Of a stretch of 57,222 nucleotides of DNA, positions 29,676 through 50,009 are shown piece after piece (the stretch's first letter is position 1; each line of letters opens with the position of its first letter). The notes beneath the pieces are model-generated. The model was not told the origin of the DNA. It worked only from the letters and a program-made list of their open reading frames with translations, and did not search any database. Source of the DNA: an uncultured bacterium (GTDB taxonomy: Bacteria; Patescibacteriota; Patescibacteriia; UBA9570; XYC2-FULL-38-9). The translations under genes were made by a program, and so were the position numbers. Location of the stretch: contig CALKUP010000014.1 in the NCBI GenBank assembly GCA_937996685.1, positions 1-57,222 of the forward strand, read 5' to 3'.

Positions 29676-29690
29676 ATATATTCACTTCCG

Positions 29691-30401: not shown

Positions 30402-30406
30402 ACAAT

Positions 30407-33165: not shown

Positions 33166-36100
33166 TTATACATAACCTTGCTCGTCTTTTTCACCCAGCT
33201 CTACACTATCATCTCCTGCTACAGCCTCAGCTGTTTTTTTAGCTGTTGCAGCCGCAGTACGAGTAATCAGTTTTTTGTTGTATGGAGCAAATTTTTCCAA
33301 AAAGTCTTGCGTGAAACCCGTTCCATCTGGAGCTTTGTGGTTCAAAAACAATGTTGTTGGAGTAACAGGAACGCTTGGAAGACCTGCCGCACTCGTTATT
33401 GCATCAGCTGCTTTTTGCCGCTCTTTATCCCTTTCTTGCCTTATTTGATCAATAGCAATTTCACGCGCAAAAACCTCTCGAGTTGCCGGGTCCATTTTTT
33501 TAAGGTCTAAATCATTTTGACTACGAATGTAATTATCAAGAACACCTTTATTGACGTCTGTAACATTACCGTCCATATCTCTTGAAAACGGCATGTTCCA
33601 ATCTTTTCCTGCTAACGCAAGCGCATTCTTAGGACTAGACAGCATTCCCTGCAGTATTCTAATCATCTCAGGACTATTCATTCGATATCCATTTTGGTTA
33701 AAATCAAATACCCCCATTGCGCCACCACGATCATTGCCTTTTTCAAGATTTGCCAACACTGACATTTGACGATACGCTTCTTGTTGAGAGAAACCACCAT
33801 TAGAAGAAAACCAAGAAGCAAGCAAGCGCCAAAGGTCACTACTAGTATCATAGACCATTCCGACCTTATTCGCTGCAATCGCTGCCTTTAAAGCAGCTGG
33901 ATCATTTTTTAATTCGTCTGAAATTTGTGTGTATTCTTTTTTGCCGTCTACAGTAGTTGTAAATTTTGGCGCGCCCGTTGTTTCATCAAGTTCATACATT
34001 TTTGTTCCTAAATCAGCTCCAAGCAACGCTGTTTGCTTACGAAAATCTGGATTCGACTCTGCGGCTTGTTGTAAAAACTTTGGAATCGCCCACCCACCAG
34101 CTCCCAAGGATACCAATTTTCTTAAAATAGCTGATGTAACAAAACCATTACCGGAGATTAATGCATTAGTAAATGACTCTTGCAATTGCGGAACCTCTAA
34201 ACCATCTAAACCTTTCGAAGCCTCTGAAATTCGTTGATCACTCAGCGCCGCAGCTCCAATAGCTCTATAACCTCGAGTTCGCAACACTTCCCGCTCATAT
34301 GCATCTTTTGTCTGAGTAGCGGTTTTCTTGCGGCCTTCCGCATCAGCAACAGCTTTTGTCCTCTCAGCTCTCTGACTTAAGAGGTCAGTGAAAGTCTCTA
34401 AAGAGTCAACTCCAGCGGCCTTTGCTGCATTTTTTTTCTGCTCTTCTAATTGAGCTTTTTTCGCCAATCTAGCCGCCTTGTCTACCTGTCCTGGCTTTGC
34501 AAATCCAACACCTAAAGCTCCTAATAGAGCATCGCTTACATCACCAGTCGCGATAGTTTTGGCTCCTGCATTTATTAAATCTAAAAGTTTTTTTGACTCC
34601 GCAGGATCAGTTGCTGGATCTGACGCCCGATCTTCTACTATTTCTCGAATAGCCTTATCTTGAATATCTATTGAACCACTAGCCTTCAGTCTCGCAATTA
34701 TTTGATCTGCCGTTTCTGGCTCTGAAGGGTCAATATTTCCAATTGCTTCATCTGCATCTGCTATTATTTTTTGTGCATTTTCCAATAAGGCTAATTTTTC
34801 AGGGCTAATTCCTTGGTCTGCATCAAATTGTTCTACTAATCTTTTCTGATGTGCAAGTTCATCATTCGCCCTTTCAATCGCTTTCTTGTTCTCTTCCATT
34901 TGTTTATTTTCCCTGGATTCTTGACCAATAAAAGGAAGAGCCTTAAACATTTTAAGGCCTAATACTTCATTCAAGAGAATATTTTTCAACGTCACCCCTT
35001 CCACATATTGAGTTCCCCCTTCTGTTGTCGCTCCAAACATTGCACCTATAGCACGAGTTGCTGCATTACGACGACCTGTTGTCATCACACCCGCTAATTC
35101 TTGCGCTCCTTGCGCAGAGGCGTTTGCGCGTGTTTTTGCATTTGCATCTAAAGCATTTTTTACATTTGTTGCTGAACCTTTAACGTCCATTAAATTACCC
35201 ACCATATCAAGGCCGGTACCAAAAAAACGCAGAGCTCCAGTACCAAGTGAATTATTTACATACTTTCCTTCCTCATCTGTTTCAGAAGCACCAAAAGAAC
35301 CTCGTATGCCAGAACCAAGACTTGAAACCATTTGTGAACCACGAATGACCCCTGAATTGACCAAAGAACCGGCCGCAGCGGATGCTTTTCCGGTATATTC
35401 TCCAATTTCACCAGACATTCCTGATGTAAATTTCAATGCAGCTGACAACATGATAAAGCCAATAAGGTAATTTGCCAAAATACTTGGATTTGTCGATCCG
35501 TACTGGGAACTTGACTGAGAATTCAACTGAGTCAATGCTGTTGTTGTTGCGTTACTTGCTTTAGTTAATGATTGAACATTTGTTAATCCTTGAGTCAAAG
35601 GATTCGCAATTGCACCACCAAGACCACCTGCGCTAGTCCCGACAGCAGCTCCATTCATCATTGTTAGTGTCAGCCATAAAAAAAATGTCATGAATGGACC
35701 CAGGATAATGTATCGTCCCCACATTTCCCACCACTGAGTGGAATATCGTTTTGTAACATCTAAAATACGTGTGATATACGCAAGCGGAGACAGGACAATT
35801 AATACCCATAATAATACAATCCGAGCAATCAACATCACAACAAAAACCGTTAAAATCACAAATGCTGAAAACTGCAAAAATGCCGCGATGATAACAGCTC
35901 CAGTCGCCTCATAAGAAAGGGAAGCAGCAGTACCGGTAACACCAGCAGAGTCTGTAAAACCACCACTACTAAAAAAATTTCCTAGCGCGGGTGCGCCTAA
36001 ACCTGCAAGAACGCCTCCTCCCCATGAACCGCCAATGCTCCCACCAAATGTCGCCATTGCCACATTTGCCGCATCAGTAAAAAAACCACAAATGGTTTTA

Positions 36101-36672
36101 CTAAAATTAATGAGTACTGCGTATAAAATAAATTTCCGCAATAAATCCTGCCATTTGTAACTCTCCAGATTCAGGACCGCTGCAAGAGCAATAATTAAAA
36201 GAATAATCGCAAAAAACAAATTACAAATATCACGCACAATACGCCAACCTGTGACAACTGAGGTAACATTAATATATCCCCCGGGAGCCGATCCGGCAGT
36301 TACCCAAAAATCACCCCATGGATATTCAATGACAACATCAAGAATAGCTGCCACAATAGATGATAAAGCTCCACATAATATATACAACAAACTTGCAACT
36401 AACGAGATAATAAATGTTATAGGAGACGAGAGTCCTTCGGCAAGAGTGATAGCATTTGCCTGCTCTGCAAATGAACCAAGGTTAAACGCATACATAATCC
36501 CGCCAATAGCAGCGAGACTCACAACGCTAATCCCAGCTCCGTACAAAAAACGTTTACCGAAACGACGAATTTTTTGTTTGGCAAATTGAAAAATGTGATC
36601 AATATCACCAATCGTTTCAGTCAGACGTTCATAGGTGAACATCAAGCGTAATCGCACTATAAAATCTTGCAT
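33166..36672 (-). CDS. VirB6/TrbL-like polytopic membrane protein with a C-terminal extension of about 700 aa
   Basis: At least 7 hydrophobic segments in the first 430 aa or so, with G-rich loops, then a long hydrophilic, partly coiled-coil-like region. It is the first gene of the T4SS-like operon. Confidence 0.55.
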   Translation of the reverse strand: MQDFIVRLRLMFTYERLTETIGDIDHIFQFAKQKIRRFGKRFLYGAGISVVSLAAIGGIMYAFNLGSFAEQANAITLAEGLSSPITFIISLVASLLYILCGALSSIVAAILDVVIEYPWGDFWVTAGSAPGGYINVTSVVTGWRIVRDICNLFFAIILLIIALAAVLNLESYKWQDLLRKFILYAVLINFSKTICGFFTDAANVAMATFGGSIGGSWGGGVLAGLGAPALGNFFSSGGFTDSAGVTGTAASLSYEATGAVIIAAFLQFSAFVILTVFVVMLIARIVLLWVLIVLSPLAYITRILDVTKRYSTQWWEMWGRYIILGPFMTFFLWLTLTMMNGAAVGTSAGGLGGAIANPLTQGLTNVQSLTKASNATTTALTQLNSQSSSQYGSTNPSILANYLIGFIMLSAALKFTSGMSGEIGEYTGKASAAAGSLVNSGVIRGSQMVSSLGSGIRGSFGASETDEEGKYVNNSLGTGALRFFGTGLDMVGNLMDVKGSATNVKNALDANAKTRANASAQGAQELAGVMTTGRRNAATRAIGAMFGATTEGGTQYVEGVTLKNILLNEVLGLKMFKALPFIGQESRENKQMEENKKAIERANDELAHQKRLVEQFDADQGISPEKLALLENAQKIIADADEAIGNIDPSEPETADQIIARLKASGSIDIQDKAIREIVEDRASDPATDPAESKKLLDLINAGAKTIATGDVSDALLGALGVGFAKPGQVDKAARLAKKAQLEEQKKNAAKAAGVDSLETFTDLLSQRAERTKAVADAEGRKKTATQTKDAYEREVLRTRGYRAIGAAALSDQRISEASKGLDGLEVPQLQESFTNALISGNGFVTSAILRKLVSLGAGGWAIPKFLQQAAESNPDFRKQTALLGADLGTKMYELDETTGAPKFTTTVDGKKEYTQISDELKNDPAALKAAIAANKVGMVYDTSSDLWRLLASWFSSNGGFSQQEAYRQMSVLANLEKGNDRGGAMGVFDFNQNGYRMNSPEMIRILQGMLSSPKNALALAGKDWNMPFSRDMDGNVTDVNKGVLDNYIRSQNDLDLKKMDPATREVFAREIAIDQIRQERDKERQKAADAITSAAGLPSVPVTPTTLFLNHKAPDGTGFTQDFLEKFAPYNKKLITRTAAATAKKTAEAVAGDDSVELGEKDEQGYV

Positions 36673-38454: not shown

Positions 38455-38570
38455 TTCTCTCTGTATCTCGATACACATTTCTTCTGTAGTCATGTCATCG
38501 TGATTGTCACAGACATGTTCACAGAAGAAAGCCGGACCATTTGCTGTTGTTCGAGCAGTTGGTTCGGCGG

Positions 38571-38609: not shown

Positions 38610-38622
38610 GGGGCTGAAAAAT

Positions 38623-39124: not shown

Positions 39125-42100
39125 TTATAACTCCACTTCAATACGTTTGCTATATTCAGCGTATGATTGACACGCTCGCGCATTGGCAGTGGTTCGCTCG
39201 ACAGCAGAGTCAAGATTACACATTCCCCAATAATCCTTTACTTGAATCCGCACTTCATATTCACACCCACCTCGATCTCCAATTGCTGATGAATATGTCG
39301 CACTTTGTGAATTACATGTGTAAATATGCTCAAGTGTATGATTTGCCAGCGGCACACCTTCCCATAAAATTGCAGGTAGATCTGGCTCAAATGTTGTATT
39401 TGCAGGATTAGCTTGATATTGAACTGCAATTTGATTTAATGGCTGTTGGTCTTTGTCCACTTTCGCTCCAAATTGAATGGTCACTCTTTGTCCAGCTTGG
39501 ACAGTAATCGGATCATTTCCAGGTAAACCATCAGGAACTCCCTGCACAACAATATTTTCCACTTCTGGAGTCACCGCACAATAGACAGAAGTATCAAATG
39601 GACGTTCATTATTAGGACACAACGGAATCGTCGAGAACGAAGATAGTGTTATCGCAAGATTACGAAAGCCCTGTTGAGCATTGTTTGGAATTGGAGTATT
39701 GTCTCCAGGCTTTATGTAATTACTCAAAGCATCGATTGACAATGGGCGTAACTCCCCATAATGCTCTTGATTTCGAATATGCCCTAAAGCCTCATCCCCT
39801 TGCTCTTCCGCAATATAGACTGTTGGTTCAGCAATATCCGCAAAGAGTGTACGATATCGTCCCCATGCGCTCGCTGCAGCAGTTGCAAGTTTTTGATTCA
39901 AAGTTGCTTCATTACCGCCTTTTTTCTCATGTTCGGACAACGGTTTACAATATGTTCCCGCTCCGGCGTCTCGACATTGCTGGGAAACAGTCCCAACGTT
40001 ACCCGCTGGATCACACGGCACTGACGATTGCTCTTTGATTATTGTTGTTTGCGTTCGAGCATCTTGCACACACACACCTTCTAAAGAAATCCATTGATTT
40101 GCATTTCCGTCTGTTTGACATGCTGAACCATTGTTTGGATCAAATGTATTGGCTTCATATGGACTATCTTGCTGACAAACCATTTCTGTACAACTCCCAA
40201 TACAAGCAAATGGCAACCCCGAACCCTCTCCATTTGTCGCATAGACCAGTGGCAATGTTCCGGCTTTTCCGGTGATATTTGATTTTTGACCATCAAGATA
40301 GTCAGGACTATGCTCTAACTGATCTGGCGCTTTTCCATTCAAGGCAAGCATTCCAAACAAAATATTTGAGAAATTGACCCCGCCATTTCCAAGTTGGTAT
40401 GTATATCCAAGTCCTGGAACGATAAACGGTGTCGCTCGATTAACGCGGGTTCGCCATGGCATTACCTTCACTGTACTACTCGCCGCATCAACAGAAGCGC
40501 TATTCACTGCCAAGAGACACACCTCTTTCAAATCAAACTCCCAAGAAATATTTGTGAATTGCTTTGGATCTGCTCGACGGAAACCATTAAAAATGACAAT
40601 GTAGACATTTTTTAAATACCCGCCTTCAAAATCAAACTTCACTGCATAGATATTATTCCCACAAGCCGGATTACCAATAATACCACCAAAACAATTTGGC
40701 ATTCCTTGCGGAATAATATCATTAGCACCAATGGAATTTGCATTACGTGATACAAAATACTTAAAGAAGGCATCTGGTTGCTGGATCCGATAATCAGCAA
40801 TTAGTGCTTCATCTGGATCAATTTTACCGTTTTTATTCCAAATTTCACTACCTGGACCAAGGTCTGCGGAAAACCGCTCAAACGGATTCAATGCTTGGTG
40901 ATTGTTTGCAACTCGACCAGCACTAAAGAGCAAGTTCGCACCGCTACTTTGATTATCTGAAAAACTCCCGACGCCTTTAACATAGACAAAGTCAGCATTC
41001 CCTAAGACATCTTTGTAATTACGGTCATTAACAAGCGCAGAGCATGGACTGGAACCACACCACAGGCCTGTTTGAACAGCATAGACACCAGCTTTATCTT
41101 CATTACTTCCATCATCAAAATGAAAGGCTTGCGCTGGATCGACTTTATTGTCCCAATTACGTTCAAAAATATCCCAGATGAGGCCGGCTGCTGAAAAATC
41201 ATATTTTTGTTCATTGTTTCCAGTTGTACTTGGATCTGTTGTTCCTGCATCTTGCTCGATAAATGAGAGAGCTGAAGCAAGATTTTGATCTTCGCCATAT
41301 AATGGCTTCCCAATTTTCCAGGTATTTTTTGCTGACTCAACAGCATTTGCACTGGTCGTTCCATCAAATTGCGGCTCACCATCATATAATCGAATGTCAG
41401 AAATCTCAGAGAGATGAACCAATTCTTCGAGTTTTAATTGATCTGGACCAAGCTTCAAGAATGTTGCATATTCTTGATTTGAAACTGATTCAGCGGTGTG
41501 TGATGTATCTTGATCAACGTAGATGCTGTTTAATGTGTGTGTCAAACTATAATCCTTGCTACTGTAGGAATGTTTAATGTCATATGGATTAACATTATTT
41601 TGAGTATTCGTTGAAGACACCATTCGAGAATTGACATAATTTGGATCATTCGCTGTGTTACACTCTAAAGTTTCTCCTGGATATTGCGCTGCATATGGAC
41701 GACAATCAACATCCGCATTACACGCCACTTGATTACCCTGGTCTTCAATTGGAACAGGTACTTCAAATGTGACTTCAGTATTTCCAAAGTCTTGCCCAAT
41801 ATCATTGTATTGACAAATACCCGTCGGTTGATTTGCAATACAAATTTCACCAGCATCTGTATCACACTCTGCTGATGTATTACACAGCTCTCCAGAATTT
41901 TCACAGAAGCCTAAATCTTCATTTCCTTTTGCAACCAAACAATGATACACCGGCGCTTGATCAGTCCAGCGCATTTTCAAACCTGCTCGTGATAAATCTG
42001 ATTCACCAGTAATCGTTGAAACAGGCCACCACGCAATACAACCGTTTGCATGCAATGGATCTTTTTCAAGACAATATCCTTTCCATCCAGAATAAATCAC

Positions 42101-45100
42101 ACCACTTGAATCAGTGTAATTACACGACGCTGACGTTTCTGTTGGATATGCTCGACATGATCGAGAGACAAGATTTGGAGTGAGGCCTCCGCGAACCTCA
42201 GATTTTGAACCCGCAACACCTCCATCCGCTGAGACTTCCAAAGCTGGTTTCAATGAAACATTATCAATCAAGAAGGCGTTATCAAGTGCACCGTCAACTT
42301 GACCAATAAAGATAGTCGCGCCGTCTGAAGCCTGAAAATTCCCCACAGTCACAGGGCCCAATGTATACCGTGTCCACGCAGTAGAAAGTCGAAATGGATT
42401 TGCATCAGGCGCATCTGTGAAATAATATGGCGTATCACCAATTCGAATCCCGGCGGTCATTGCATTAATATGATCCGTTGTATCCGCTTGTGGATCTTGA
42501 ATATATTTCGCATCAAACGACAATACATATTGACCATTCGATGATAAATCACGACTAGAAATATTAACCTCAAGTCCAGACTCTTGATTATTCACCGGCT
42601 GCACATACATCACATTGTTCAAATCGAGCGATTTCGCTGCAACAGGGAATGGGTTTGAAATTCCAGGAAGTTTTGAATAGAGAGAACTGCCATCAGCTCC
42701 GTTGTCAGGCAATGTTTCGTATTGACGCGCTTCATCATAATCAATAATAGTCATTTCGGCATTACCAAAATTATGCCAGTCTTTCCATGAGCGCTGTGCT
42801 CCTGTACGAGAAACATTCTTACACCAACCAGATGAATAATCGATAGTCGATAAACGCATTGTTTGACCCGCTGCACGCAAAGCCGTTTGGGCAGCGGTTT
42901 CTGTATCCTGCACACGACAATGTGCATCAATGGTACACGCTTGATTAAAGTCACGAGAAGAACTCACAGCAGAATCAACAGTTGTATTCGCCGTTGAATC
43001 ACCATCACATTGAACAGATTCAAAATCGTTATTTGGAATTAAGTCAACGGTGCCTTTTACGCCTGCAACTCCTTGCTCAGGCATCCAATCAACTGGGTAG
43101 TACCCTTTTGACTGCGCAACTTCATTTCCTTCTGCACTTAACCAGCGCATGCCGGCTTTTGTCAGACCTGAGTAATCCTTGATACTCGCGACAGCAAATC
43201 CAGCCCCTGGTTGAGACACAGCACTCACAACACTATCCTGACTCAACGCGTTGCTGTTTGGTACTTGAACAAATTGTGTACATTCACCAGTATCTTCATT
43301 TCGTTTTGTACAGGTCGTGAACTTTGTACATGTATTCACGATTTGACCATTGATGTTGACGGGATTGCTATCACCACAAGTCAACCACTCACTACATTGG
43401 CGGTCTCGTTTGACCTGCAAGACAACATTACTGTTTGCAGCATTTGCAGTGCCATCACACACCACAGCACCGTCAGAGGCTCGTGTTTGACACGCCACAA
43501 CAGCTGTCGTGTTGCCATTGACCTGATTTAAGACTTCTACATCTGACAATGTATTATTTGTACTCGCGGTCATTTCTTGAAATGCAACACAACCTTGACC
43601 TTCATCAACAACGCCATTACATGTATTCACATCTCCTTCAGGCGCTCCATCAACCGATGAATTAATGTATGAGTACACATCAGCTTCAGAAAGCTCAACA
43701 TCATCAAAGAACACTCGTCCATTATATGACTCGACAAATACTCGAACATTCACAGTTCCTTCTGGGAATTGGTGAAGTTGATTTGGACCAATTAACGCGT
43801 GGTAAGACACCCAACCATCTACAATATCACCTCGATCTCCACCATCATATGCAGTAATCGCATAACTTTCAGGAGTATTTTCAGGTGTTTGCAACAAATT
43901 ACCATCAGGACCTTCAAACAACAGACCAACAGCGAATTTTGCCGCGCTACCCGCTTTCACTTTCGCACTTAATGTATAGATTTTATTCGAATCAACACTG
44001 ATTTGTGAGTCATATGCTGCCATACAATCAGCATTCGACGGAGCAGTAATCTTTAAGGAGAATTGACCACTAAATTGATCAGCTCCTTTATCTGATTGTC
44101 GTGTTTCTGTACAGTTTTTAATTTGTGCATTAATTGCTGTTTGATACGGATTACTCCCAAGATATGCAGACCAATAATCCGGTCGATTGTCTGGTGTTTG
44201 GTTATTGATGTTGTCATTACTGAATACATCTGTTTCAAAACTGGTGTTTTGCAAACTATCGACTGACGCTGAATTTGGATCAAGGTAATTTGTACAACCA
44301 GCATACACCGCATTACAAATACCAACATATCCAGATTGATTGTCTAAATTCGATACACAACGTGATGGTTTTCCGTCGTCAGCTGTTGGACACTCTGAAT
44401 CAGTACTACACAATTCACCGGCTCGTGGACCACGGTTACACACTGGCCCTTTTGGTTGTGATGGTGCATCTGATGGATTTTGCAATGGGCATGGATCACC
44501 GTTTTTTGTTTTCCAACTACCAGAACCTTCATCGTATTCACAGGTTTTATTTCCTGGATCTTTGAAGTATTGCACACTGCCGTCTGCCGCTGCGTATTCT
44601 TTACAACTCAATTGCTCGTTTGCACACAAACTATTGCTGTAAAAATCAACATTATTTAAGAGGTATTGCGTTTCAAATCCAGCAACTTTATTACTTGCAT
44701 CAATTGATGGCAAGCCAAATGCCTGACATGATGCACTTGCCGCATCACAGAATGACGCTGGAGTAACAATCCGTGTTTCTGGCTGATCAGCAGACACAAC
44801 AACATCATCAGAAGCTGATTCATTATCTGTCTTGAAACGCTCAGTAAATGGTGATGTTGAATTTTTTGTGTTGAAGAGCGCAGTACAGCCAGCATCTTTT
44901 TCATCACACAATTTTTCAAATGATTTGAGGTATGAGGTGTTTCCTGCTGGATCTTTGTATTCTTGACATCCTTCATATCCATTACATGATGTCGCTGAGC
45001 CCTTGATCATGTAAATACTATTGTTTTCAAAAACACGAACATTATCAATGTAGGCATTTGCACCTTGATATGAGAAACCAAATTCTGCACCAGCTCCAAG

Positions 45101-48100
45101 CGCTTCGCTTGAAATAAACGGACCAATATTATATTGCTTCCATTCAGTTGATAGCGTAATTGTTGCAAATGTTTGTCGAGTGCCTGTTGTTGGATTATTT
45201 ACAAATGCGGTCAATTGTGAATTTGCGTCACCTTTTGCCCAGAGAGTCGCAACATAACTCTTGTCTTGAGACAAGCTCGCGCCAAAGAGCGTCGCTGCTT
45301 CTCGACTCGCAGCGTTAGAGCCAATTTGCATTGATTGACCACTATTTGCAGACACAACTGTAGACGAACTTGTTCCGCCGCCCCACATTGCTGTATCAAA
45401 ATCAGCATCAATGATAAACGATTGATTACCCGCTGCCGCACCTTTGTATTCACGACATGACACAGCAGTTGCTGAACAAGAGACACTTTCACTTGGGATT
45501 GTGTAATAAATGCGGTTGTCTGCAGAATTACGCAAAGCTGTACAACTATCGGATACCGAAATTGTCGCTGATTTTAATCGATAATATCGATTACCTGCAG
45601 CATCAAAGTATTCTGTACAATTTGGATTCACGCCAAGTTCGTCAACAGAACATGCTGCTTGGGTTTCTGTTGTATCAACACATGCTGCATCAGCAGATTG
45701 TGCTGTTCCGCCAGTCAAATCAAGGTTTGTACATGGGCCTGCGTCAATGTTACTCTTTTTTAAATACCATGAACGAATTTGATATCCTGTTTGATCAGAA
45801 CCTTCAAATGAATAATAGGTATCAACTAATCCTTGTGCGACTTGTGTTTCCGTTGGTTTTACACATTGTCGAATGTAATTGTAATACTCAAGACCTTCAC
45901 CGCCAGCACCTTGTGAATCAATGTTAACGTATTGTTCACAACCAACATCTTGCGCTGAACAACTATCACCAGTTGATGGCACAACAGACACACTCGGCAC
46001 ACACGCGACACCAGAACCACATTCAGCCGCTGCACGAGATGGGTTACATGAGGTTGTTGTTCCAGAACAATAATATCCTGTACGGGCCGCAACGGCTGGC
46101 GCTACTTCTTCTGGAAGTCCAGCAACAAATGTTTTCAATGGAGCTTGATATGGAGTATCTGATTCAACAAATGCCTGACACCCAACAAATCCTTGGAAAC
46201 ATTGTGAACATGATGGATTTGTGAAATCAGTCCCATTTCCACAGGCTTCAGACAATGGGTTTGTCACACGTCCTGGAACTGGCAAACGAGTACCACCAGT
46301 TTGCGGTGTATATAACTGACAACCAACTTCACTTGGGTTACATTGTGCTGCAACATCTGTTTTCAAATGCAATGCGTTACCGCCGTAGTCTTGGTACGCA
46401 GTAGAGACTGATGCATTTGTGATTTCGATCAACGAAACATTATCAACGATTAAATGACAGTCACGCGGCGCTCCGATTTCAACATTCAAATCCGTCGCTG
46501 TCACGCCTGCACCAAATGTATATGGTTGCAATGCAATTGTTTGATAGCCAGTGCCTGCTGCATACGACACAGCATCTTTACGACCAGCTGAACCCGCACT
46601 GATTTCTGCAGTTGCTGTTCCCTGGTCGTCGCAGGTTGACCCGCTAGCATTTAAATAACTATACGACAAAACGAACGAACGATTCGCCAACGGCACGCCT
46701 GTTTCAACACGCGTTGTTAATGGCTGCCCGTCACCAATTTGTGATTCAACGCCCACTTTTCCACTCGCGGCATCTGTCACAACACGCCAGCCATTACCAC
46801 CAGACGCGCCGTCAGCTTGCAACCAACCACGACATGCTCCGCCGGTTTCATCAACACACGCGCTGCCATCTACTTCTGCGAACGCAAGCGCCGCTCCTCC
46901 AAACTCATCTGTTGATGTTGCAGCAGAAGCTGGATCTTTTCCAAAATTATTAAATGACTCAAAGCTTGGGTTTGAGATGAGATTGCTGCCAATTTGTGGG
47001 ATAAAGGTTGTACAACTTTGATTTGCCTCATCACACGGCTGCACATCATTATCAAAATTGATTGAGTACTGCGTATTTGTATCAGAACCAGAGAGATACC
47101 ACGTTTTATCATCTGCGCTACAACGGAATCCGCCATTCGCAATACTACAACCTGGAGTTCCAGTTGAACCATCAGCTTGCACTAAATTATCACGACAGCC
47201 ATTCGCGTTTGTACAGGTTTTATAAATTGTATCCTCACCTTTACATTGGAATTCTTTATCAACAGTATTGTAGACCGTGCAACGCCACGCACAACCATCT
47301 GAATCCGAAGTACAACCGTTATAGTTCAGCGTATCTTTTAAATACCCGTTTTGCGTTCCAGTACTATCTGTAAACACCTCACAAGAGACTTGTTCTGCTG
47401 GACAACTTTCGCCTTCAAACCGATAAATATCCTCTTGTTTTGTACAATATCCATAGGCTTCACACGCACCAGTATCGTCTTGAGACAAACAGGTTTGTGC
47501 GTCAACACAACTTTTTAAACGATTGACTTGCAACTGCTCTGGCGTATACGGATTACCATCTGCATCAATAAAGCTGGTAGCTCCAATATTTTCTGCGTAC
47601 CCCTCAACTTTACAAAACACCTCAGGTGACTTTAACACCCAATTCGGATCAACAAGACCACAATATGGAGAATAATTATCCGTTCCACAATCATCATATT
47701 TATCCATGACATCACGCAATGTCAGTGATGATGCTTGATCATAATTTTTATGGTATTGCGCAGCAAGCTCCCAGCCAACAGGGAGAACGCTGTACTGACG
47801 TAAAATCGTGATGTTCCGCAATGAAAATCCTTCTTCTGGACTTGTTATATCCTTCTGATCAACGTTAAGACCGAATGGTAAATTACCAAGATTTGTGTCG
47901 TCTACTAATTGCTTCACTGTTTTTTGCTCATCGATCGCTGAACGGAATTCATCAGTGATGACACAATTCACAACATCAGCCCCTTCTGATGGACACGTTG
48001 CGAATTGCGACAAGATATCTACTGTTCCAGTGCTCGAGATTGGCGGGGTTTTGTAACTCGCGAATTGTTCACGGGCAGCGCGAATACCACCGCTCCGGGT

Positions 48101-49069
48101 TGTGGAACTACTCCCACGTAATGATTCATTAATGTCTGACTGTGTAAAAAATGACAATAAGCCACTCTTGGCTTTATCCATCAATTTTGACAACAATGTA
48201 TTTGTGAAAATATTTAAAGAGTCAGCAACAACATTCCCTGTTAATGTTGTTTCTCCATCTGCTGCTTTTTCAGCTGCTAATTGATTTTGCAGTTTTATAG
48301 ATTCAGCCGATGTTTCAACATTTCCAGAGACTTTTGATTTTTGATCTTTAAAGTCATTTTTTAATCGCTCAATTTGCGCCTCTTCTTGCGCCTTCGCTTT
48401 CGCAGTCGTTGCCTTATCTAAGCCTTGTACATACGTCAACAACGGATTTTCCGCGATACTCATGTAATTCGCGAATGTGATAATTGACACTGGGTTAGAA
48501 GCAAATTCAATTTTCGCTTCTGTAAATGTTTTATCTAAAGAGTCAAATGAATTTTGTGCGCTCGCTGCAATTTGTGACGCGGAACAATTTGCGGTTTTTA
48601 CTTGAGCCGCTTCCGGTTGATCGAATAATCGGTTCACCAAAATTTGCACACGCAAACCTTGGGCCTGCGGCAATGAACACAAATCTAATCCACCAGTTTT
48701 TGCGATTGTATTTAAAAATTCACCGACAGCCGCGTCTCCTTGGCCTTGAATATACGTCCCAACATCTTTTGTGAAAAGTAACGGTTTTTGATTACTATCA
48801 CCAGACGCAATCCAGACGGCAGTGTCATAGGCAATTTTATCAAGGAAGACACGAATCGAATTTTTCAGCGCTACCTGCGCTGATGTCTCAAGTCCTTTTA
48901 AAATAGTATCTAAAATACCTGTTGACCCTTGCACTACACGTTGCACATCACCCAACACAGTCACCTGCGCGAAAGCCACTCGCGGGGAGAACACTAAACT
49001 CACTAAAAAAAGACTCAGTGTTGTTACTTTAAGGAATTGACGAAGTGAGTGGTTGGTAAAAAATTTCAT
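39125..49069 (-). CDS. Giant (3314-aa) secreted cysteine-rich protein with four lectin/CBM-like jelly-roll modules
   Basis: ATG at 49069. Signal peptide ending VAFA|QV. Four modules each open with N-x-[SD]-FE and end with [ILF]-[DI]-[DN]-V-x-[LV]-x-[EP] (IVDNVSLIE, YIDNVRVFE, FFDDVELSE, LIDNVSLKP). There are many [GS]-C-x-x-[YF] connector motifs and about 110 Cys by manual count. No TM segment or LPXTG at the C-terminus. Confidence 0.8.
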   Translation of the reverse strand: MKFFTNHSLRQFLKVTTLSLFLVSLVFSPRVAFAQVTVLGDVQRVVQGSTGILDTILKGLETSAQVALKNSIRVFLDKIAYDTAVWIASGDSNQKPLLFTKDVGTYIQGQGDAAVGEFLNTIAKTGGLDLCSLPQAQGLRVQILVNRLFDQPEAAQVKTANCSASQIAASAQNSFDSLDKTFTEAKIEFASNPVSIITFANYMSIAENPLLTYVQGLDKATTAKAKAQEEAQIERLKNDFKDQKSKVSGNVETSAESIKLQNQLAAEKAADGETTLTGNVVADSLNIFTNTLLSKLMDKAKSGLLSFFTQSDINESLRGSSSTTRSGGIRAAREQFASYKTPPISSTGTVDILSQFATCPSEGADVVNCVITDEFRSAIDEQKTVKQLVDDTNLGNLPFGLNVDQKDITSPEEGFSLRNITILRQYSVLPVGWELAAQYHKNYDQASSLTLRDVMDKYDDCGTDNYSPYCGLVDPNWVLKSPEVFCKVEGYAENIGATSFIDADGNPYTPEQLQVNRLKSCVDAQTCLSQDDTGACEAYGYCTKQEDIYRFEGESCPAEQVSCEVFTDSTGTQNGYLKDTLNYNGCTSDSDGCAWRCTVYNTVDKEFQCKGEDTIYKTCTNANGCRDNLVQADGSTGTPGCSIANGGFRCSADDKTWYLSGSDTNTQYSINFDNDVQPCDEANQSCTTFIPQIGSNLISNPSFESFNNFGKDPASAATSTDEFGGAALAFAEVDGSACVDETGGACRGWLQADGASGGNGWRVVTDAASGKVGVESQIGDGQPLTTRVETGVPLANRSFVLSYSYLNASGSTCDDQGTATAEISAGSAGRKDAVSYAAGTGYQTIALQPYTFGAGVTATDLNVEIGAPRDCHLIVDNVSLIEITNASVSTAYQDYGGNALHLKTDVAAQCNPSEVGCQLYTPQTGGTRLPVPGRVTNPLSEACGNGTDFTNPSCSQCFQGFVGCQAFVESDTPYQAPLKTFVAGLPEEVAPAVAARTGYYCSGTTTSCNPSRAAAECGSGVACVPSVSVVPSTGDSCSAQDVGCEQYVNIDSQGAGGEGLEYYNYIRQCVKPTETQVAQGLVDTYYSFEGSDQTGYQIRSWYLKKSNIDAGPCTNLDLTGGTAQSADAACVDTTETQAACSVDELGVNPNCTEYFDAAGNRYYRLKSATISVSDSCTALRNSADNRIYYTIPSESVSCSATAVSCREYKGAAAGNQSFIIDADFDTAMWGGGTSSSTVVSANSGQSMQIGSNAASREAATLFGASLSQDKSYVATLWAKGDANSQLTAFVNNPTTGTRQTFATITLSTEWKQYNIGPFISSEALGAGAEFGFSYQGANAYIDNVRVFENNSIYMIKGSATSCNGYEGCQEYKDPAGNTSYLKSFEKLCDEKDAGCTALFNTKNSTSPFTERFKTDNESASDDVVVSADQPETRIVTPASFCDAASASCQAFGLPSIDASNKVAGFETQYLLNNVDFYSNSLCANEQLSCKEYAAADGSVQYFKDPGNKTCEYDEGSGSWKTKNGDPCPLQNPSDAPSQPKGPVCNRGPRAGELCSTDSECPTADDGKPSRCVSNLDNQSGYVGICNAVYAGCTNYLDPNSASVDSLQNTSFETDVFSNDNINNQTPDNRPDYWSAYLGSNPYQTAINAQIKNCTETRQSDKGADQFSGQFSLKITAPSNADCMAAYDSQISVDSNKIYTLSAKVKAGSAAKFAVGLLFEGPDGNLLQTPENTPESYAITAYDGGDRGDIVDGWVSYHALIGPNQLHQFPEGTVNVRVFVESYNGRVFFDDVELSEADVYSYINSSVDGAPEGDVNTCNGVVDEGQGCVAFQEMTASTNNTLSDVEVLNQVNGNTTAVVACQTRASDGAVVCDGTANAANSNVVLQVKRDRQCSEWLTCGDSNPVNINGQIVNTCTKFTTCTKRNEDTGECTQFVQVPNSNALSQDSVVSAVSQPGAGFAVASIKDYSGLTKAGMRWLSAEGNEVAQSKGYYPVDWMPEQGVAGVKGTVDLIPNNDFESVQCDGDSTANTTVDSAVSSSRDFNQACTIDAHCRVQDTETAAQTALRAAGQTMRLSTIDYSSGWCKNVSRTGAQRSWKDWHNFGNAEMTIIDYDEARQYETLPDNGADGSSLYSKLPGISNPFPVAAKSLDLNNVMYVQPVNNQESGLEVNISSRDLSSNGQYVLSFDAKYIQDPQADTTDHINAMTAGIRIGDTPYYFTDAPDANPFRLSTAWTRYTLGPVTVGNFQASDGATIFIGQVDGALDNAFLIDNVSLKPALEVSADGGVAGSKSEVRGGLTPNLVSRSCRAYPTETSASCNYTDSSGVIYSGWKGYCLEKDPLHANGCIAWWPVSTITGESDLSRAGLKMRWTDQAPVYHCLVAKGNEDLGFCENSGELCNTSAECDTDAGEICIANQPTGICQYNDIGQDFGNTEVTFEVPVPIEDQGNQVACNADVDCRPYAAQYPGETLECNTANDPNYVNSRMVSSTNTQNNVNPYDIKHSYSSKDYSLTHTLNSIYVDQDTSHTAESVSNQEYATFLKLGPDQLKLEELVHLSEISDIRLYDGEPQFDGTTSANAVESAKNTWKIGKPLYGEDQNLASALSFIEQDAGTTDPSTTGNNEQKYDFSAAGLIWDIFERNWDNKVDPAQAFHFDDGSNEDKAGVYAVQTGLWCGSSPCSALVNDRNYKDVLGNADFVYVKGVGSFSDNQSSGANLLFSAGRVANNHQALNPFERFSADLGPGSEIWNKNGKIDPDEALIADYRIQQPDAFFKYFVSRNANSIGANDIIPQGMPNCFGGIIGNPACGNNIYAVKFDFEGGYLKNVYIVIFNGFRRADPKQFTNISWEFDLKEVCLLAVNSASVDAASSTVKVMPWRTRVNRATPFIVPGLGYTYQLGNGGVNFSNILFGMLALNGKAPDQLEHSPDYLDGQKSNITGKAGTLPLVYATNGEGSGLPFACIGSCTEMVCQQDSPYEANTFDPNNGSACQTDGNANQWISLEGVCVQDARTQTTIIKEQSSVPCDPAGNVGTVSQQCRDAGAGTYCKPLSEHEKKGGNEATLNQKLATAAASAWGRYRTLFADIAEPTVYIAEEQGDEALGHIRNQEHYGELRPLSIDALSNYIKPGDNTPIPNNAQQGFRNLAITLSSFSTIPLCPNNERPFDTSVYCAVTPEVENIVVQGVPDGLPGNDPITVQAGQRVTIQFGAKVDKDQQPLNQIAVQYQANPANTTFEPDLPAILWEGVPLANHTLEHIYTCNSQSATYSSAIGDRGGCEYEVRIQVKDYWGMCNLDSAVERTTANARACQSYAEYSKRIEVEL

Positions 49070-49079
49070 AAAATGCAAA

Positions 49080-49955
49080 TCAGTTGGATGATTGATTGGT
49101 GGCTTGTGGGTCCGCAGTGCCGAGCGATGTCAGTGCTTGGTCAACTGCAGTGTTAATTAATTGATTGATTTGATCGTCGCTGTATTTCTTGAGCTCTGCA
49201 TCTGTCACACCAGATTCTTTCAGGATCTTTTTCTTTTCATCAATACTGGCTGTTTTAATTGCAGACGCTTGCGCATTCGCCGCAGCCTGCGGATTCGTCG
49301 CGGTGTTTTGCGTCGCGGATACATTCATCGCATCTTTCGCAAGATTTAATAATGTCGCATCATCCGTTTTATTCAGCACATCGTCTGTCACACCTTTTGA
49401 TTTTAAAAAGGTTCGTAATTTTGCCGGATCTTCAGACAGTGTCGCAAGCTCACTTGCAGTATTTGTGTCAGCTGCAGCCGTGTTCGCATTTTGTAAATTT
49501 GAAAATGCATCAAGCGCCGCAGAACTAATTTGCGCGTTTGCATTCGCGGTTGCCTTTGATGCCTGCTGACACTCTGTCCCTTCTGGACAATTTGGATTTG
49601 TCCCAGCAGTCACTTCCTCATTATCTTTTTTTCCATCAGAATCGGAATCAGCAAGATACGGACTCGTGCCATAGACATAGCCTTCATCAAAATCATTCAA
49701 TGTGTCGTTGTCAGAGTCTTTGGCTTTTAATTCTGCCACATTCGCCGCTTCTGATGTGTTTGTAATTGTATTTGCCTGCGTTTGCGCATCAGCAATTTGT
49801 TTTTGCACTTGCGCCTGCGCTGGCTGCAAAACATTCCGACTGTAGGATGTCATATAGCCGTTGATTTGCATGAATCCGCCAACAACAATCACAACGCCAA
49901 CCACGCCTAAAATATACAACGACAACCGATCCATTTGTTTTGCGGAAAGTTCCAT
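49080..49955 (-). CDS. Bitopic protein with thrombospondin-type-3-like Ca-binding repeats and two internal GVTD repeats
   Basis: N-terminal TM segment. DSDNDTLNDFDEGYVYGTSPYLADSDSDGKKDNEEVTAGTNPNCPEGTEC. Repeats LKSKGVTDDVLNKTDDATLLNL and LKESGVTDAELKKYSDDQINQL. The next ATG is 10 nt downstream of its stop. Confidence 0.6.
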   Translation of the reverse strand: MELSAKQMDRLSLYILGVVGVVIVVGGFMQINGYMTSYSRNVLQPAQAQVQKQIADAQTQANTITNTSEAANVAELKAKDSDNDTLNDFDEGYVYGTSPYLADSDSDGKKDNEEVTAGTNPNCPEGTECQQASKATANANAQISSAALDAFSNLQNANTAAADTNTASELATLSEDPAKLRTFLKSKGVTDDVLNKTDDATLLNLAKDAMNVSATQNTATNPQAAANAQASAIKTASIDEKKKILKESGVTDAELKKYSDDQINQLINTAVDQALTSLGTADPQATNQSSN

Positions 49956-49979: not shown

Positions 49980-50009
49980 ATTATAACAGAAATTTCAATA
50001 CACCGTCAA
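49980..50009 (-). promoter_or_regulatory. Sigma70-like promoter of the giant-protein operon
   Basis: On the minus strand: TTGACG, 18 nt, TATAAT. The -10 box lies 24 nt upstream of the ATG at 49955. It shares an 18-nt block with 36684-36701. Confidence 0.55.

What the first reader, a model, noticed from the sequence alone, without database searches (positions are those of the whole stretch)
39125..49069. 3314-aa secreted, cysteine-rich multi-lectin giant protein encoded next to the T4SS-like operon
A single uninterrupted ORF of about 9.9 kb makes up 17% of the window. It has a Sec signal peptide (VAFA|QV) and no C-terminal TM segment or sortase motif.

I can see four similarly framed modules. 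Each starts near NPSFE / NTSFE / NNDFE or DADFD and ends IVDNVSLIE / YIDNVRVFE / FFDDVELSE / LIDNVSLKP. This is the framing of CBM4/9/22-type galactose-binding-like jelly rolls.

Between the modules lie many short connector units with a recurring [GS]-C-x-x-[YF] signature, for example GCQEYKDPAGNTSYLK, SCKEYAAADGSVQYFK, NCTEYFDAAGNRYYRLK, GCQLYTPQTGG and SCREYKG. I count about 110 Cys by hand.

A DsbA-like gene sits in the neighbouring operon, and the two operons share promoter sequence. A plausible role is a disulfide-stabilised glycan-binding adhesin or host-recognition fibre working with the secretion apparatus. The connector repeat family looks undescribed to me.
Basis: partly seen in the sequence, partly recalled or inferred. 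Interest (0 to 1): 0.75.

Follow-up and report, generated by a model that had tools for sequence, protein, structure and literature searches.

The report
Giant lectin-studded protein heading Patescibacteria T4SS
This intact 3,314-residue gene encodes a secreted, probably disulfide-stapled protein with four sugar-binding-type modules; it belongs to a large unnamed family that sits directly in front of the type IV secretion genes of ultrasmall Patescibacteria, making it a candidate for the host-contact adhesin that a survey of these systems did not find.

Summary
Window 39125-49069 (-) is one intact 3,314-aa ORF. It has a Sec-type signal peptide, exactly 110 Cys, no other hydrophobic segment and no LPXTG motif. 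The four framed modules are real, mutually homologous CBM4/9/16/22-type jelly rolls.

The "connectors" are not loose linkers. Together with an orphan ~445-aa N-terminal domain they form the conserved, collinear scaffold of a large Patescibacteria family: 1,231 clusters at 50% identity and at least 213 species genomes. Its hallmark is an invariant C-x6-C-x2-[YF] motif on both sides of each module. Cys columns are 95% conserved. The lectin modules and the C-terminal 850 aa diverge fastest.

Across species, a small membrane-anchored partner gene lies directly upstream in 71/72 loci. An extended-VirB6 gene lies downstream on the same strand in 38/49 loci, followed by PrgI, TrsD and VirB4.

My best reading is a disulfide-stabilised, base-anchored stalk that presents variable lectin modules to host surfaces for the T4SS. 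This would make it an analogue, not a homologue, of PrgB. Glycan binding and cooperation with the T4SS are inferred, not shown. No Pfam, NCBIfam or PDB match exists outside the CBM modules, and I found no description of the family in the literature searched.

The parts
49980..50009 (-). sigma-70-type promoter-like site (TTGACG, 18 nt, TATAAT, with TG) in the 62-nt gap between ksgA and the 291-aa gene
   Evidence: 11 of 12 matches; sequence
49080..49955 (-). p291: 291-aa partner protein with a single N-terminal TM segment (aa 7-33), an Asp-rich TSP3-like calcium motif and a low-complexity ectodomain; its stop lies 10 nt before the giant's ATG
   Evidence: Pfam TSP3_bac 20.3 bits, below cut-off; TM segment; a homologue lies directly upstream of the giant in 71/72 species loci
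48965..49069 (-). giant aa 1-35: Sec-type signal peptide (basic n-region, h-region, VAFA|QV)
   Evidence: the family consensus keeps P-x-P-A-x-A-Q
47975..48964 (-). giant aa 36-365: N-terminal domain part a, predicted long helices; carries the family motif IAYDTAVWIASG..GQKPL
   Evidence: model (helices, low pLDDT); alignment; matched in 120/120 homologues; no Pfam, NCBIfam or PDB match
47630..47974 (-). giant aa 366-480: N-terminal domain part b, a compact alpha/beta subdomain with the near-invariant motif [VLI]P[VA]GWE[LA]AA
   Evidence: pLDDT about 85-90; invariant columns; this motif alone recovered 213 species genomes
46982..47629 (-). giant aa 481-696: Cys-rich scaffold region CR1 (17 Cys; C-x6-C-x2-F motifs at aa 556 and 679)
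   Evidence: 108/120 homologues; invariant Cys pairs 556/563 and 679/686; 83% identity to P0002
46415..46981 (-). giant aa 697-885: module M1, a CBM-type jelly roll (NPSFE...IVDNVSLIE)
   Evidence: Foldseek hit to CBM16 2zey, TMt 0.77, E 2.8e-7, plus CBM61/22/4; hhalign M1-M2 92.7%
45419..46414 (-). giant aa 886-1217: Cys-rich scaffold region CR2 (20 Cys; motifs at aa 910, 957, 1037, 1198); aa 1045-1205 is predicted as a confident beta-rich domain
   Evidence: 116/120 homologues; pLDDT 80-95; invariant Cys; no PDB sequence match
45014..45418 (-). giant aa 1218-1352: module M2, CBM_4_9-like (DADFD...YIDNVRVFE), the most widely kept module
   Evidence: Pfam CBM_4_9 21.0 bits; 75/120 homologues; hhalign links to M1, M3 and M4
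44258..45013 (-). giant aa 1353-1604: Cys-rich scaffold region CR3 (16 Cys; motifs at aa 1362, 1441, 1482, 1585; family motif YFKDPG..TCEY)
   Evidence: 116/120 homologues; alignment
43670..44257 (-). giant aa 1605-1800: module M3, CBM_4_9-like (NTSFE...FFDDVELSE)
   Evidence: Pfam CBM_4_9 best stretch aa 1663-1717; only 20/120 homologues are detectably similar
43043..43669 (-). giant aa 1801-2009: Cys-rich scaffold region CR4 (9 Cys)
   Evidence: 51/120 homologues
42236..43042 (-). giant aa 2010-2278: module M4, an enlarged CBM-like jelly roll (NNDFE...LIDNVSLKP)
   Evidence: hhalign M2-M4 97.3%; 23/120 homologues
41660..42235 (-). giant aa 2279-2470: Cys-rich scaffold region CR5 (13 Cys)
   Evidence: 78/120 homologues
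39578..41659 (-). giant aa 2471-3164: lineage-variable C-terminal region, mixed alpha/beta, no assignable fold
   Evidence: only about 16/120 homologues; 33% identity to the nearest homologue; model pLDDT 60, pTM 0.63; no significant PDB or viral fold match
39128..39577 (-). giant aa 3165-3314: C-terminal beta-sandwich cap; the family version carries a PKD-like 'VDWGDG...H.Y...DNWGWC' motif, degenerate in this protein
   Evidence: pLDDT 70-86, strands; motif in homologues; no Pfam PKD hit
33166..36672 (-). p1168: extended VirB6-like protein (8 TM-like segments plus a large hydrophilic C-terminal part)
   Evidence: weak NCBIfam ICE_Mbov_0396_TM hit; homologues in other loci carry TrbL/TrbL_3; downstream of the giant in 38/49 species loci
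27633..30856 (-). PrgI/VirB3 (30407-30856), TrsD-like p236 (29691-30401) and VirB4 (27633-29675): core T4SS genes downstream
   Evidence: Pfam PrgI, P-loop_TraG, AAA_10; NCBIfam TrsD and VirB4 N-terminus; same order in L003, L004 and L006
23535..24320 (-). membrane-anchored DsbA-like thiol-disulfide oxidoreductase inside the T4SS operon
   Evidence: Thioredoxin_4 90 bits, DSBA 62 bits; TM segment aa 24-42

Best explanation
The ORF is a real, intact gene of a Patescibacteria genome. The named relatives that align most closely are Kerfeldbacteria, at 40-44% N-domain identity.

Shown:
- The protein has a Sec-type signal peptide and no other membrane or sortase anchor.
- It belongs to a very large, unnamed family with one collinear plan. 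The plan is: an orphan ~445-aa N-terminal domain; a cysteine-rich scaffold whose invariant hallmark is the C-x6-C-x2-[YF] motif; CBM4/9/16/22-type jelly-roll modules, each flanked on both sides by such Cys-pair motifs; and a fast-diverging C-terminal third ending in a beta-sandwich.
- Conservation falls from the N-terminal base to the distal end.
- The gene follows a small membrane-anchored protein (p291) by 10 nt.
- Across species it sits directly 5' of the extended-VirB6, PrgI, TrsD and VirB4 genes.

Inferred mechanism:
1. After Sec export, the DsbA-like oxidoreductase of the T4SS operon forms up to about 55 disulfides, which lock the scaffold into a rigid extracellular stalk.
2. The conserved N-terminal domain is held at the cell surface by p291 and/or by the extracellular part of the T4SS (extended VirB6, VirB2-like pilins).
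3. The variable lectin modules and the C-terminal tip bind envelope glycans of the host cell.
4. This selects the host and holds the T4SS against it.

On this reading the protein is a functional analogue, not a homologue, of the PrgB-type surface adhesins of Gram-positive conjugative T4SSs.
For: Intact gene: collinear full-length homologue P0002.

Export: signal peptide, no second hydrophobic segment.

Disulfides: Cys columns are 95% identical among the 24 closest homologues, against 17-55% for most other residues and 74% for Trp. 99 of 110 Cys are at least 90% conserved. Cys make up most of the invariant columns in the 34-64-sequence alignments. A TM-anchored DsbA lies in the neighbouring operon.

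Lectin modules: Pfam CBM_4_9 35.7 bits against a cut-off of 25.9, with M2 at 21 bits and M3 at 23.5 bits. The M1 model matches CBM16/61/22/4 at TMt up to 0.77. hhalign gives M1-M2 92.7%, M2-M3 93.2% and M2-M4 97.3%.

Scaffold motif: 9 observed against 0.31 expected; homologues carry 6-12.

Base-to-tip gradient: identity to P0002 is 70-83% for N1, CR1, CR2 and CR3, 37-63% for the modules and 33% for the last 850 aa. Across 119 homologues the N-domain and CR regions are found in 78-120, but M1, M3, M4 and the C-terminus in only 13-23.

Family size: 1,231 clusters with E <= 1e-3; 213 species genomes.

Linkage: the order p291, giant, VirB6-like (then PrgI, TrsD, VirB4) is seen in Nomura-, Buchanan- and Parcubacteria-type loci. 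p291 is upstream in 71/72 loci and VirB6-like is downstream on the same strand in 38/49, often only 2-16 nt after the giant's stop.

Literature:
- The homologous T4SS cluster is essential for epibiotic growth of Southlakia (PMC10633639).
- The phylum-wide T4SS survey reports that no adhesin was detected (PMC12102498).
Against: - No experiment or expression data bear on this protein.
- Synteny alone is weak evidence. Housekeeping genes (ksgA, leuS, comM) are equally conserved neighbours on the other side, so part of the linkage may reflect a frozen chromosomal neighbourhood.
- In this window the giant is separated from the VirB6-like gene by a 766-nt gap, a terminator-like hairpin seen only by eye, a DUF6909 gene and an apparent separate promoter.
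- The Southlakia T4SS cluster lists no gene above about 1,100 aa, so a Patescibacteria T4SS can work without this protein.
- How the protein stays on the cell is unknown, because it has no anchor of its own.
- The N-terminal helical part and the C-terminal third are modelled at low confidence.
- A CBM fold does not prove carbohydrate binding.
Confidence: 0.55

Rival explanations
1. It is a general cell-surface attachment fibre or envelope protein that works independently of the T4SS. On this view its position next to the T4SS genes only reflects a conserved chromosomal neighbourhood near comM, leuS and ksgA.
For: - Housekeeping genes are conserved on the upstream side in the same loci.
- In the window the giant unit appears to be separated from the DUF6909/T4SS unit by a hairpin and by an apparent promoter seen by eye in the upstream sequence.
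- Large adhesin-like proteins are common in CPR genomes without any stated T4SS link (PMC4508563; PMC8080830; PMC4736985).
- The Southlakia T4SS has no such gene.
Against: - In several lineages the next gene starts 2-16 nt after the giant's stop. In L003 that gene is the VirB6-like one; in L001 it is another large surface protein, with the TrbL-like gene further downstream.
- Adjacency on the same strand holds in 38/49 species loci spanning different classes.
- Where the VirB6-like hit is missing, the giant ORF is mostly short or split, or an extra gene intervenes. No locus shows the giant clearly moved away on its own.
Confidence: 0.25
2. It is an integral structural part of the T4SS conduit: a wall-spanning or extracellular stalk or tip that replaces the missing VirB8, VirB9, VirB10 or VirB5 functions. 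Transfer would then depend on it mechanically, not only for adhesion.
For: - Patescibacteria T4SSs mostly lack recognisable VirB8 and outer-complex parts, yet they have VirB2-like pilins. In other systems such pilins carry a VirB5 tip protein (PMC12102498; PMC12857230).
- The N-terminal domain is helical and is the most widespread part of the family.
- The gene directly abuts virB6-like genes in many species.
Against: - No similarity to VirB5, VirB8 or VirB9 in Pfam or PDB sequence searches.
- The essential Southlakia system lacks it.
- A single-copy 3,314-aa monomer studded with lectin modules looks more like an adhesin than a channel subunit.
Confidence: 0.1
3. It is a glycan-processing scaffold, like a cellulosomal scaffoldin or a multi-CBM glycosidase. 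The CBMs would target an unrecognised catalytic domain in the C-terminal 850 aa to host or environmental polysaccharide.
For: - CBM4/9/16/22 modules usually accompany glycoside hydrolases (PDB hits).
- Some family members carry dockerin or VWA domains.
- The C-terminal third has a folded core with pTM 0.63 and no assigned function.
Against: - No catalytic family is found in Pfam or NCBIfam anywhere in the protein.
- The C-terminal model has no significant PDB or viral structural match. The weak hits are only Ig-like sandwiches, with TMq <= 0.10.
- The C-terminal third is the least conserved part, which is unusual for a catalytic domain.
Confidence: 0.07
4. It is an artefact: a mis-assembled or frameshift-fused ORF rather than one gene.
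For: Nothing positive. It is only the generic risk for very long ORFs in metagenome assemblies.
Against: - An end-to-end collinear homologue of near-equal length comes from an independent assembly (P0002).
- Dozens of homologues of 2,400-3,800 aa share the same segment order.
- Base composition shows no step inside the gene.
Confidence: 0.02

Closest known systems
PrgB (aggregation substance) and the PrgA/PrgC surface proteins of the Enterococcus pCF10 MPF_FATA-type T4SS
   Same: Both are Sec-exported surface proteins encoded immediately 5' of the VirB6 (PrgH), VirB3 (PrgI) and VirB4 (PrgJ) genes of a monoderm-type T4SS. PrgB carries a lectin-like adhesin domain and mediates contact with the target cell. 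The gene order and PrgB biology are from my own knowledge; the adhesin role is cited in PMC12102498.
   Different: There is no sequence or domain homology and no LPXTG/sortase anchor. The giant is about 2.5 times larger, has 110 conserved Cys, and uses CBM4/9-type modules in place of the PrgB adhesin domain. It is chromosomal and syntenic across many species. It accompanies a T4SS whose clusters mostly lack a nearby relaxase or coupling-protein gene.
CBM4/9/16/22 carbohydrate-binding modules of bacterial glycoside hydrolases (Pfam PF02018, galactose-binding-like fold)
   Same: The fold matches (TMt up to 0.77), and so does the Pfam signature, including the N..FE start and the [IF]D[DN]V.L end.
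   Different: No catalytic domain is attached. The four modules are embedded between Cys-pair motifs of a scaffold instead of being joined by flexible linkers. Ligands are unknown.
Large cysteine-rich extracellular proteins noted in CPR genomes (Peribacteria PMC4736985; OD1 adhesin-like proteins PMC4508563; Vampirococcus giant proteins PMC8080830)
   Same: These are also giant, exported, often Cys-rich proteins, predicted to mediate attachment to host cells.
   Different: Those reports describe heterogeneous sets, such as 7.2% Cys proteins with FG-GAP, PKD, WD40 or integrin domains, without a defined family. They give no fixed domain order and no fixed position at the head of the T4SS cluster.
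VirB5-type pilus-tip adhesins of VirB2-pilus-forming T4SSs
   Same: This T4SS has VirB2-like pilins but no recognised VirB5. The giant starts with a Sec signal followed by a helical domain, as VirB5 does (VirB5 architecture is from my own knowledge).
   Different: No homology is detectable. The giant is about 15 times larger. The resemblance is only a lead.
Omnitrophota giant proteins encoded beside secretion-system genes (bioRxiv 10.1101/2023.11.21.568195)
   Same: [quoted passage not shown] They are proposed to act on prey cell surfaces.
   Different: They come from a different phylum, have different domains and much larger sizes, and the neighbouring system includes gspD/E/F homologues, which this cluster lacks.

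Membership tests
CBM_4_9 / galactose-binding-like jelly-roll modules (PF02018) | Match to the Pfam HMM at or above the gathering score | tested here: met
   The whole protein scores 35.7 bits against a cut-off of 25.9. Taken singly, M2 (21.0) and M3 (23.5) fall just below it, and M1 and M4 give no direct hit.
CBM_4_9 / galactose-binding-like jelly-roll modules (PF02018) | Beta-sandwich jelly-roll fold superposable on solved CBMs | tested here: met
   The M1 model matches CBM16 2zey (TMt 0.77, E 2.8e-7), CBM61, CBM22 and CBM4. M2-M4 were not modelled but are linked to M1/M2 by hhalign at 92.7-97.3%.
CBM_4_9 / galactose-binding-like jelly-roll modules (PF02018) | Binds carbohydrate | not testable with these tools
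   Needs glycan arrays or pull-downs with oxidatively folded modules.
PrgB-type T4SS surface adhesins (MPF_FATA) | Encoded in the T4SS cluster, 5' of the VirB6, VirB3 and VirB4 genes | tested here: met
   Window gene order; 38/49 species loci have VirB6-like downstream; the full order is seen in L003, L004 and L006.
PrgB-type T4SS surface adhesins (MPF_FATA) | C-terminal LPXTG sortase signal with a TM segment | tested here: not met
   No LPXTG-type motif near the C-terminus and no hydrophobic segment after aa 40.
PrgB-type T4SS surface adhesins (MPF_FATA) | Sequence homology to PrgB adhesin or stalk domains | tested here: not met
   Pfam at E <= 1 returns only CBM_4_9. NCBIfam returns nothing. 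The published survey also found no PrgB homologue in the phylum.
VirB5 pilus-tip proteins | Homology to the VirB5/TraC family | tested here: not met
   No Pfam hit for aa 1-701 at E <= 10. The N-domain profile finds no PDB chain with E < 0.1. A fold-level test of the N-domain alone was not possible.
Myxococcus-type cysteine-rich repeat proteins (TIGR02232) | Match to the repeat model | tested here: not met
   NCBIfam (which includes the TIGRFAMs) gave no family at E <= 0.1.
Cellulosomal scaffoldins / dockerin proteins | Dockerin or cohesin domains | tested here: not met
   None in this protein. Dockerin_1 occurs in some distant family members only.
The unnamed Patescibacteria giant family defined here | N-terminal domain with [VLI]P[VA]GWE[LA]AA, collinear CR1-CR2-CR3 scaffold with invariant C-x6-C pairs, and p291-like gene upstream | tested here: met

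The most novel reading that the evidence does not exclude
p291, the giant protein and the extended VirB6 together form a previously unrecognised extracellular arm of the T4SS in the lineages sampled here (Kerfeld-, Falkow-, Uhr-, Kuenen-, Veblen-, Buchanan-, Nomura- and Parcubacteria-type genomes). The arm would be a disulfide-stapled stalk with fixed slots into which lectin modules are swapped during evolution. It would couple recognition of host-surface glycans directly to the positioning or gating of a relaxase-less T4SS used for feeding on the host. That would make it a host-range determinant comparable to a phage tail fibre, but built onto a secretion machine.
Probability: 0.15. Interest if true: 0.85.

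Novelty: new variant of a known kind. Interest (0 to 1): 0.6.

Why it matters
Patescibacteria make up a large share of uncultured bacterial diversity. Cultivated members live attached to host cells.

Their T4SS is essential for epibiotic growth in the one genetically tractable species tested (PMC10633639). What it transports, and how it finds the host, are unknown. The phylum-wide survey explicitly found no adhesin (PMC12102498).

The family described here is a concrete candidate for the missing host-contact element:
- It spans at least 1,200 protein clusters at 50% identity and at least 213 species genomes.
- It holds a fixed place in front of virB6.
- It has a conserved base and fast-evolving lectin modules.

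It also offers:
- a marker to look for in cryo-ET images of contact sites;
- modules that can be expressed and tested on glycan arrays to predict hosts of uncultured lineages;
- two orphan domains (the N-domain and the Cys-pair scaffold) that deserve family definitions.

Tried and rejected
- **Pfam, ten separate segments at E <= 10:** nothing beyond CBM_4_9 for the N-domain, the CR regions or the C-terminus.
- **NCBIfam, giant and eight neighbours:** nothing for the giant.
- **Profile searches against PDB sequences:** the N-domain (A5) gave only E 0.17 noise; CR2 (A7) gave nothing. Whole-family alignments A2 and A4 were too large for that tool.
- **Structure prediction:** Smaller alignments A2 and A4 ran, but gave only mean pLDDT 60.1 and 58.5.
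- **Foldseek of the C-terminal model:** PDB gave only generic Ig-like sandwiches with TMq <= 0.10. The viral library gave no hit at E <= 1e-3. I therefore assign no fold, and I reject a phage receptor-binding-protein relationship for lack of evidence.
- **PKD reading of the C-terminal cap:** the family motif VDWGDG...H.Y looks PKD-like, but Pfam found no PKD domain in six C-termini. It stays a resemblance only.
- **Genome scan with the CR3 alignment, meant to reach further downstream:** failed because no stretch was conserved enough. I used the N-domain alignment instead.
- **Shared promoter:** the repeat search and reading both upstream regions found none.
- **Rfam on the gap after the gene:** only sub-threshold noise.
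- **Expression evidence:** I checked whether the highly expressed 'galactose-binding fold' gene PMX.50_00003 of PMC10936435 is a family member. The supplements held no usable entry.
- **Southlakia cluster:** I looked for a giant gene in its T4SS cluster. None was listed; the largest genes are about 1,000-1,100 aa.


Full report
**1. The observation**

The window carries one uninterrupted ORF at 39125..49078 on the minus strand. From the ATG at 49069 it encodes 3,314 aa.

The only hydrophobic stretch is aa 15-40, an n/h/c-type Sec signal ending VAFA|QV. There is no LPXTG-type signal and no later TM segment.

The ORF is not an assembly artefact. An independent assembly holds a 3,286-aa homologue that aligns at 56% identity over 100% of the query. 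Dozens of proteins of 2,400-3,800 aa share the same order of segments.

**2. What the parts are**

*Modules.* Pfam finds only CBM_4_9 (35.7 bits against a cut-off of 25.9). Scanned as separate segments, module M2 scores 21.0 bits and M3 23.5 bits. Profiles of the four modules built from homologues match one another: M1-M2 92.7%, M2-M3 93.2% and M2-M4 97.3%.

An AlphaFold2 model of aa 36-1215 has mean pLDDT 58.5, with local confidence of about 60-86 in M1. It matches CBM16 (2zey, TMt 0.77, E 2.8e-7), CBM61, CBM22 and CBM4.

*The "connectors".* These are not a loose repeat. I split the protein into twelve segments and searched 119 homologues. The number of sequences matched (the protein itself included) was:

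| Segment | Sequences with a match |
|---|---|
| N-terminal domain, aa 1-470 | 120 |
| CR1 | 108 |
| CR2 | 116 |
| CR3 | 116 |
| CR5 | 78 |
| M2 | 75 |
| M1 | 13 |
| M3 | 20 |
| M4 | 23 |
| C-terminal 850 aa | about 16 |

The Cys-rich regions keep the same order in all members and are only weakly similar to one another (CR2-CR3 86%, CR1-CR3 67%).

Their hallmark is C-x6-C-x2-[YFW]. It occurs 9 times, against 0.31 expected in shuffles (maximum 3 of 2,000), and 6-12 times in homologues. These Cys pairs (556/563, 679/686, 910/917, 957/964, 1037/1044, 1198/1205) are among the few invariant columns in alignments of 34-64 family members.

Read directly from the sequence, each jelly roll is flanked on both sides by a close Cys pair. 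One lies at aa 679 before M1 and one at 910 after it. The pairs at 1198 and 1362 flank M2. The pairs at 1585 and 1817/1827 flank M3, and 2305/2316 follows M4. I infer that the modules are looped out of a continuous scaffold.

*Cysteine conservation.* Cys columns are 95% identical among the 24 closest homologues, which are 29-56% identical overall. Trp columns are 74% identical and all other residues 17-55%. 99 of 110 Cys are at least 90% conserved. For an exported protein this argues for structural disulfides.

*Orphan regions.*
- The N-terminal domain is predicted as long helices (aa 36-365, low confidence), followed by a compact alpha/beta subdomain (aa 366-480, pLDDT about 88) that carries the near-invariant PVGWELAA motif.
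- The N-domain matches nothing in Pfam, NCBIfam or PDB sequences.
- CR2 contains a confidently predicted beta-rich domain (aa 1045-1205, pLDDT 80-95), also without a PDB sequence match.
- The C-terminal model (aa 2295-3314) has pLDDT 60 and pTM 0.63. It has no significant structural neighbour in the PDB or the viral library; the weak hits are Ig-like sandwiches.
- The last ~130 aa form a beta-sandwich. In other family members this region carries a PKD-like VDWGDG...H.Y motif, but Pfam does not call a PKD domain.

*Gradient.* Identity to the nearest homologue falls from base to tip:

| Region | Identity to P0002 |
|---|---|
| N-domain, CR1, CR2, CR3 | 70-83% |
| CR4, CR5 | 54-56% |
| Modules M1-M4 | 37-63% |
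| Last 850 aa | 33% |

**3. Genomic context**

Downstream on the same strand lie, in order:
- DUF6909
- an 8-TM extended VirB6-like protein (p1168)
- p760
- PrgI/VirB3
- a TrsD-like protein (p236)
- VirB4
- three unassigned genes
- a TM-anchored DsbA-like protein
- two VirB2-like pilin domains fused to peptidoglycan hydrolases

Upstream lie leuS, ksgA and a 291-aa gene (p291). The stop codon of p291 is 10 nt from the giant's ATG. p291 is preceded by the best promoter-like site of the region: TTGACG, 18 nt, TATAAT, with TG. p291 has one N-terminal TM segment and an Asp-rich TSP3-like calcium motif.

I found no sequence shared between this promoter region and the one upstream of DUF6909.

**4. 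Comparative genomics**

The family is Patescibacteria-wide within the lineages sampled.
- The N-domain (aa 36-700) finds 1,231 clusters at 50% identity with E <= 1e-3, and 885 with E <= 1e-30. Most listed hits are 2,000-5,000 aa long, with the match near the N-terminus.
- One peptide pattern recovered 213 species-representative genomes: Kerfeld-, Falkow-, Uhr-, Kuenen-, Veblen- and Buchananbacteria and Parcubacteria-type records. A Nomurabacteria genome carries the locus too (L001).

Five fully annotated loci from distant members repeat the window's order: ksgA, a ~225-290-aa protein, the giant, then one or two further large proteins including a VirB6-like one. PrgI, TrsD and VirB4 follow within reach in three of them.

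Across 80 species loci:
- A p291 homologue lies directly upstream in 71 of 72 loci with room for it.
- A VirB6-like gene lies downstream on the same strand in 38 of 49 loci with a complete giant ORF and at least 1.5 kb of downstream sequence.
- The 11 exceptions are mostly loci with a short or split giant ORF or an intervening gene. None shows the giant clearly relocated.

There is one caveat. In Southlakia epibionticum the T4SS cluster SEML1_0006-0019 has the matching core order (VirB6-like, a ~1,000-aa protein, PrgI, TrsD-like, VirB4, hydrolases, pilin array). It lists no gene above about 1,100 aa. The giant plus p291 is thus a lineage-specific addition, not a core T4SS part.

**5. Mechanism**

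*Shown:* an export signal; conserved Cys; CBM folds; a conserved base and a variable tip; and tight linkage to p291 and to the T4SS genes.

*Inferred:*
1. After Sec export, the DsbA-like enzyme forms up to about 55 disulfides.
2. The conserved N-domain is retained at the surface by p291 and/or by extracellular T4SS parts.
3. The rigid stalk presents variable lectin modules and the tip to host envelope glycans.
4. This selects the host and holds the T4SS against it.

I put this at 0.55.

*Rivals:*

| Rival explanation | Confidence |
|---|---|
| T4SS-independent surface fibre; synteny merely inherited | 0.25 |
| Integral conduit or tip subunit of the T4SS | 0.10 |
| Glycan-processing scaffold with a hidden catalytic domain | 0.07 |
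| Assembly artefact | 0.02 |

**6. Comparison with what is known**

In function and position the closest analogue is PrgB, with PrgA and PrgC, of pCF10-type Gram-positive T4SSs. Membership fails on anchor and homology: there is no LPXTG and no shared domain.

The modules are members of the CBM4/9 fold class. CPR papers have noted large, sometimes Cys-rich, putative adhesins in general terms (PMC4508563, PMC4736985, PMC8080830).

The dedicated survey of Patescibacteria T4SSs states that no adhesins were detected (PMC12102498). The 2025 T4SS review passages I read do not mention such a protein either (PMC12857230). In the literature I could search, I found no description of this family, its N-domain, its Cys-pair scaffold or its fixed place in front of virB6.

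**7. Verdict**

The feature is real.

I rate it a new variant of a known kind: a T4SS-linked giant lectin adhesin with two orphan domains. Interest is 0.6. It gives a testable handle on host recognition by uncultured Patescibacteria, but every functional step is still inference.

Noticed in passing
window 38500-38950 (ORF 38623-38904, minus strand); L008 20021-20353: A ~400-nt island of up to 70% GC (window background 40-48%) lies in the gap between the giant's stop and DUF6909. It holds a 93-aa lipoprotein-like ORF (MRIFVVVWALAASAC...) with an Asp-rich '...DDNPDVYPGAP...C' motif. The closest relative, L008, has a 71% GC island in the same gap. That island encodes a 110-aa lipoprotein-like ORF with 'IYPGAPELCDGEDNDCDG'. 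Yet blastn and tblastx find no similarity between the two islands. Pfam and Rfam give nothing.
   Followed up: partly
window 21754-22053 and 23131-23430: A 300-nt direct repeat at 92% identity. It lies within two paralogous genes that both have a VirB2-like T4SS_pilin domain. One is fused to a lysozyme-like SLT_3 domain (22631-23533) and the other to Peptidase_M15_4 (21188-22153). These are pilin-hydrolase fusions inside the T4SS operon.
   Followed up: partly
window 36739-38358 (minus strand): A DUF6909 gene (459 bits, no TM segment) sits between the giant and the VirB6-like gene. Among the 85 other loci examined it appears in that slot only in the closest relative, L008. Elsewhere the VirB6-like gene or another large surface protein follows the giant directly.
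   Followed up: partly
loci L007-L086 (record titles): Many species-representative MAGs that carry this Patescibacteria-type locus (ksgA, p291, giant, virB6-like) are titled 'uncultured Gammaproteobacteria bacterium'. Others are titled Bdellovibrionales, Pirellulales or Candidatus Methylomirabilis. These look like mislabelled or contaminated bins.
   Followed up: no
L001 2859-6443; L006 3284-6325; L005 1-1771: In several relatives the leucyl-tRNA synthetase upstream of the locus is enlarged to 1,013-1,194 aa and carries alpha/beta-hydrolase (Ser_hydrolase, Abhydrolase) hits. In L006 the hit is listed between LeuRS domains. The window's LeuRS (50970-53363) is 797 aa and has no such hits.
   Followed up: no
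window 54715-54750: A perfect tandem duplication of an 18-nt unit (ATGTCAGTGCGGGACAAA) near the 3' end of the 53415-54854 (+) ORF.
   Followed up: no
window 33166-36672 (minus strand): The VirB6-like protein is of the 'extended' type. It has about 8 TM-like segments in the first 415 aa, followed by a ~750-aa hydrophilic part without any family match. That part could be a docking partner for the giant's N-domain.
   Followed up: no
window 38433-38456 (minus strand): By eye there is a hairpin, AAATGCC-ATAGC-GGCATTT, followed by a T-run. It sits just upstream of an extended -10-like TGTGATATACT in front of DUF6909. It looks like a terminator for the p291-giant unit, but the consensus scan did not list it.
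   Followed up: no
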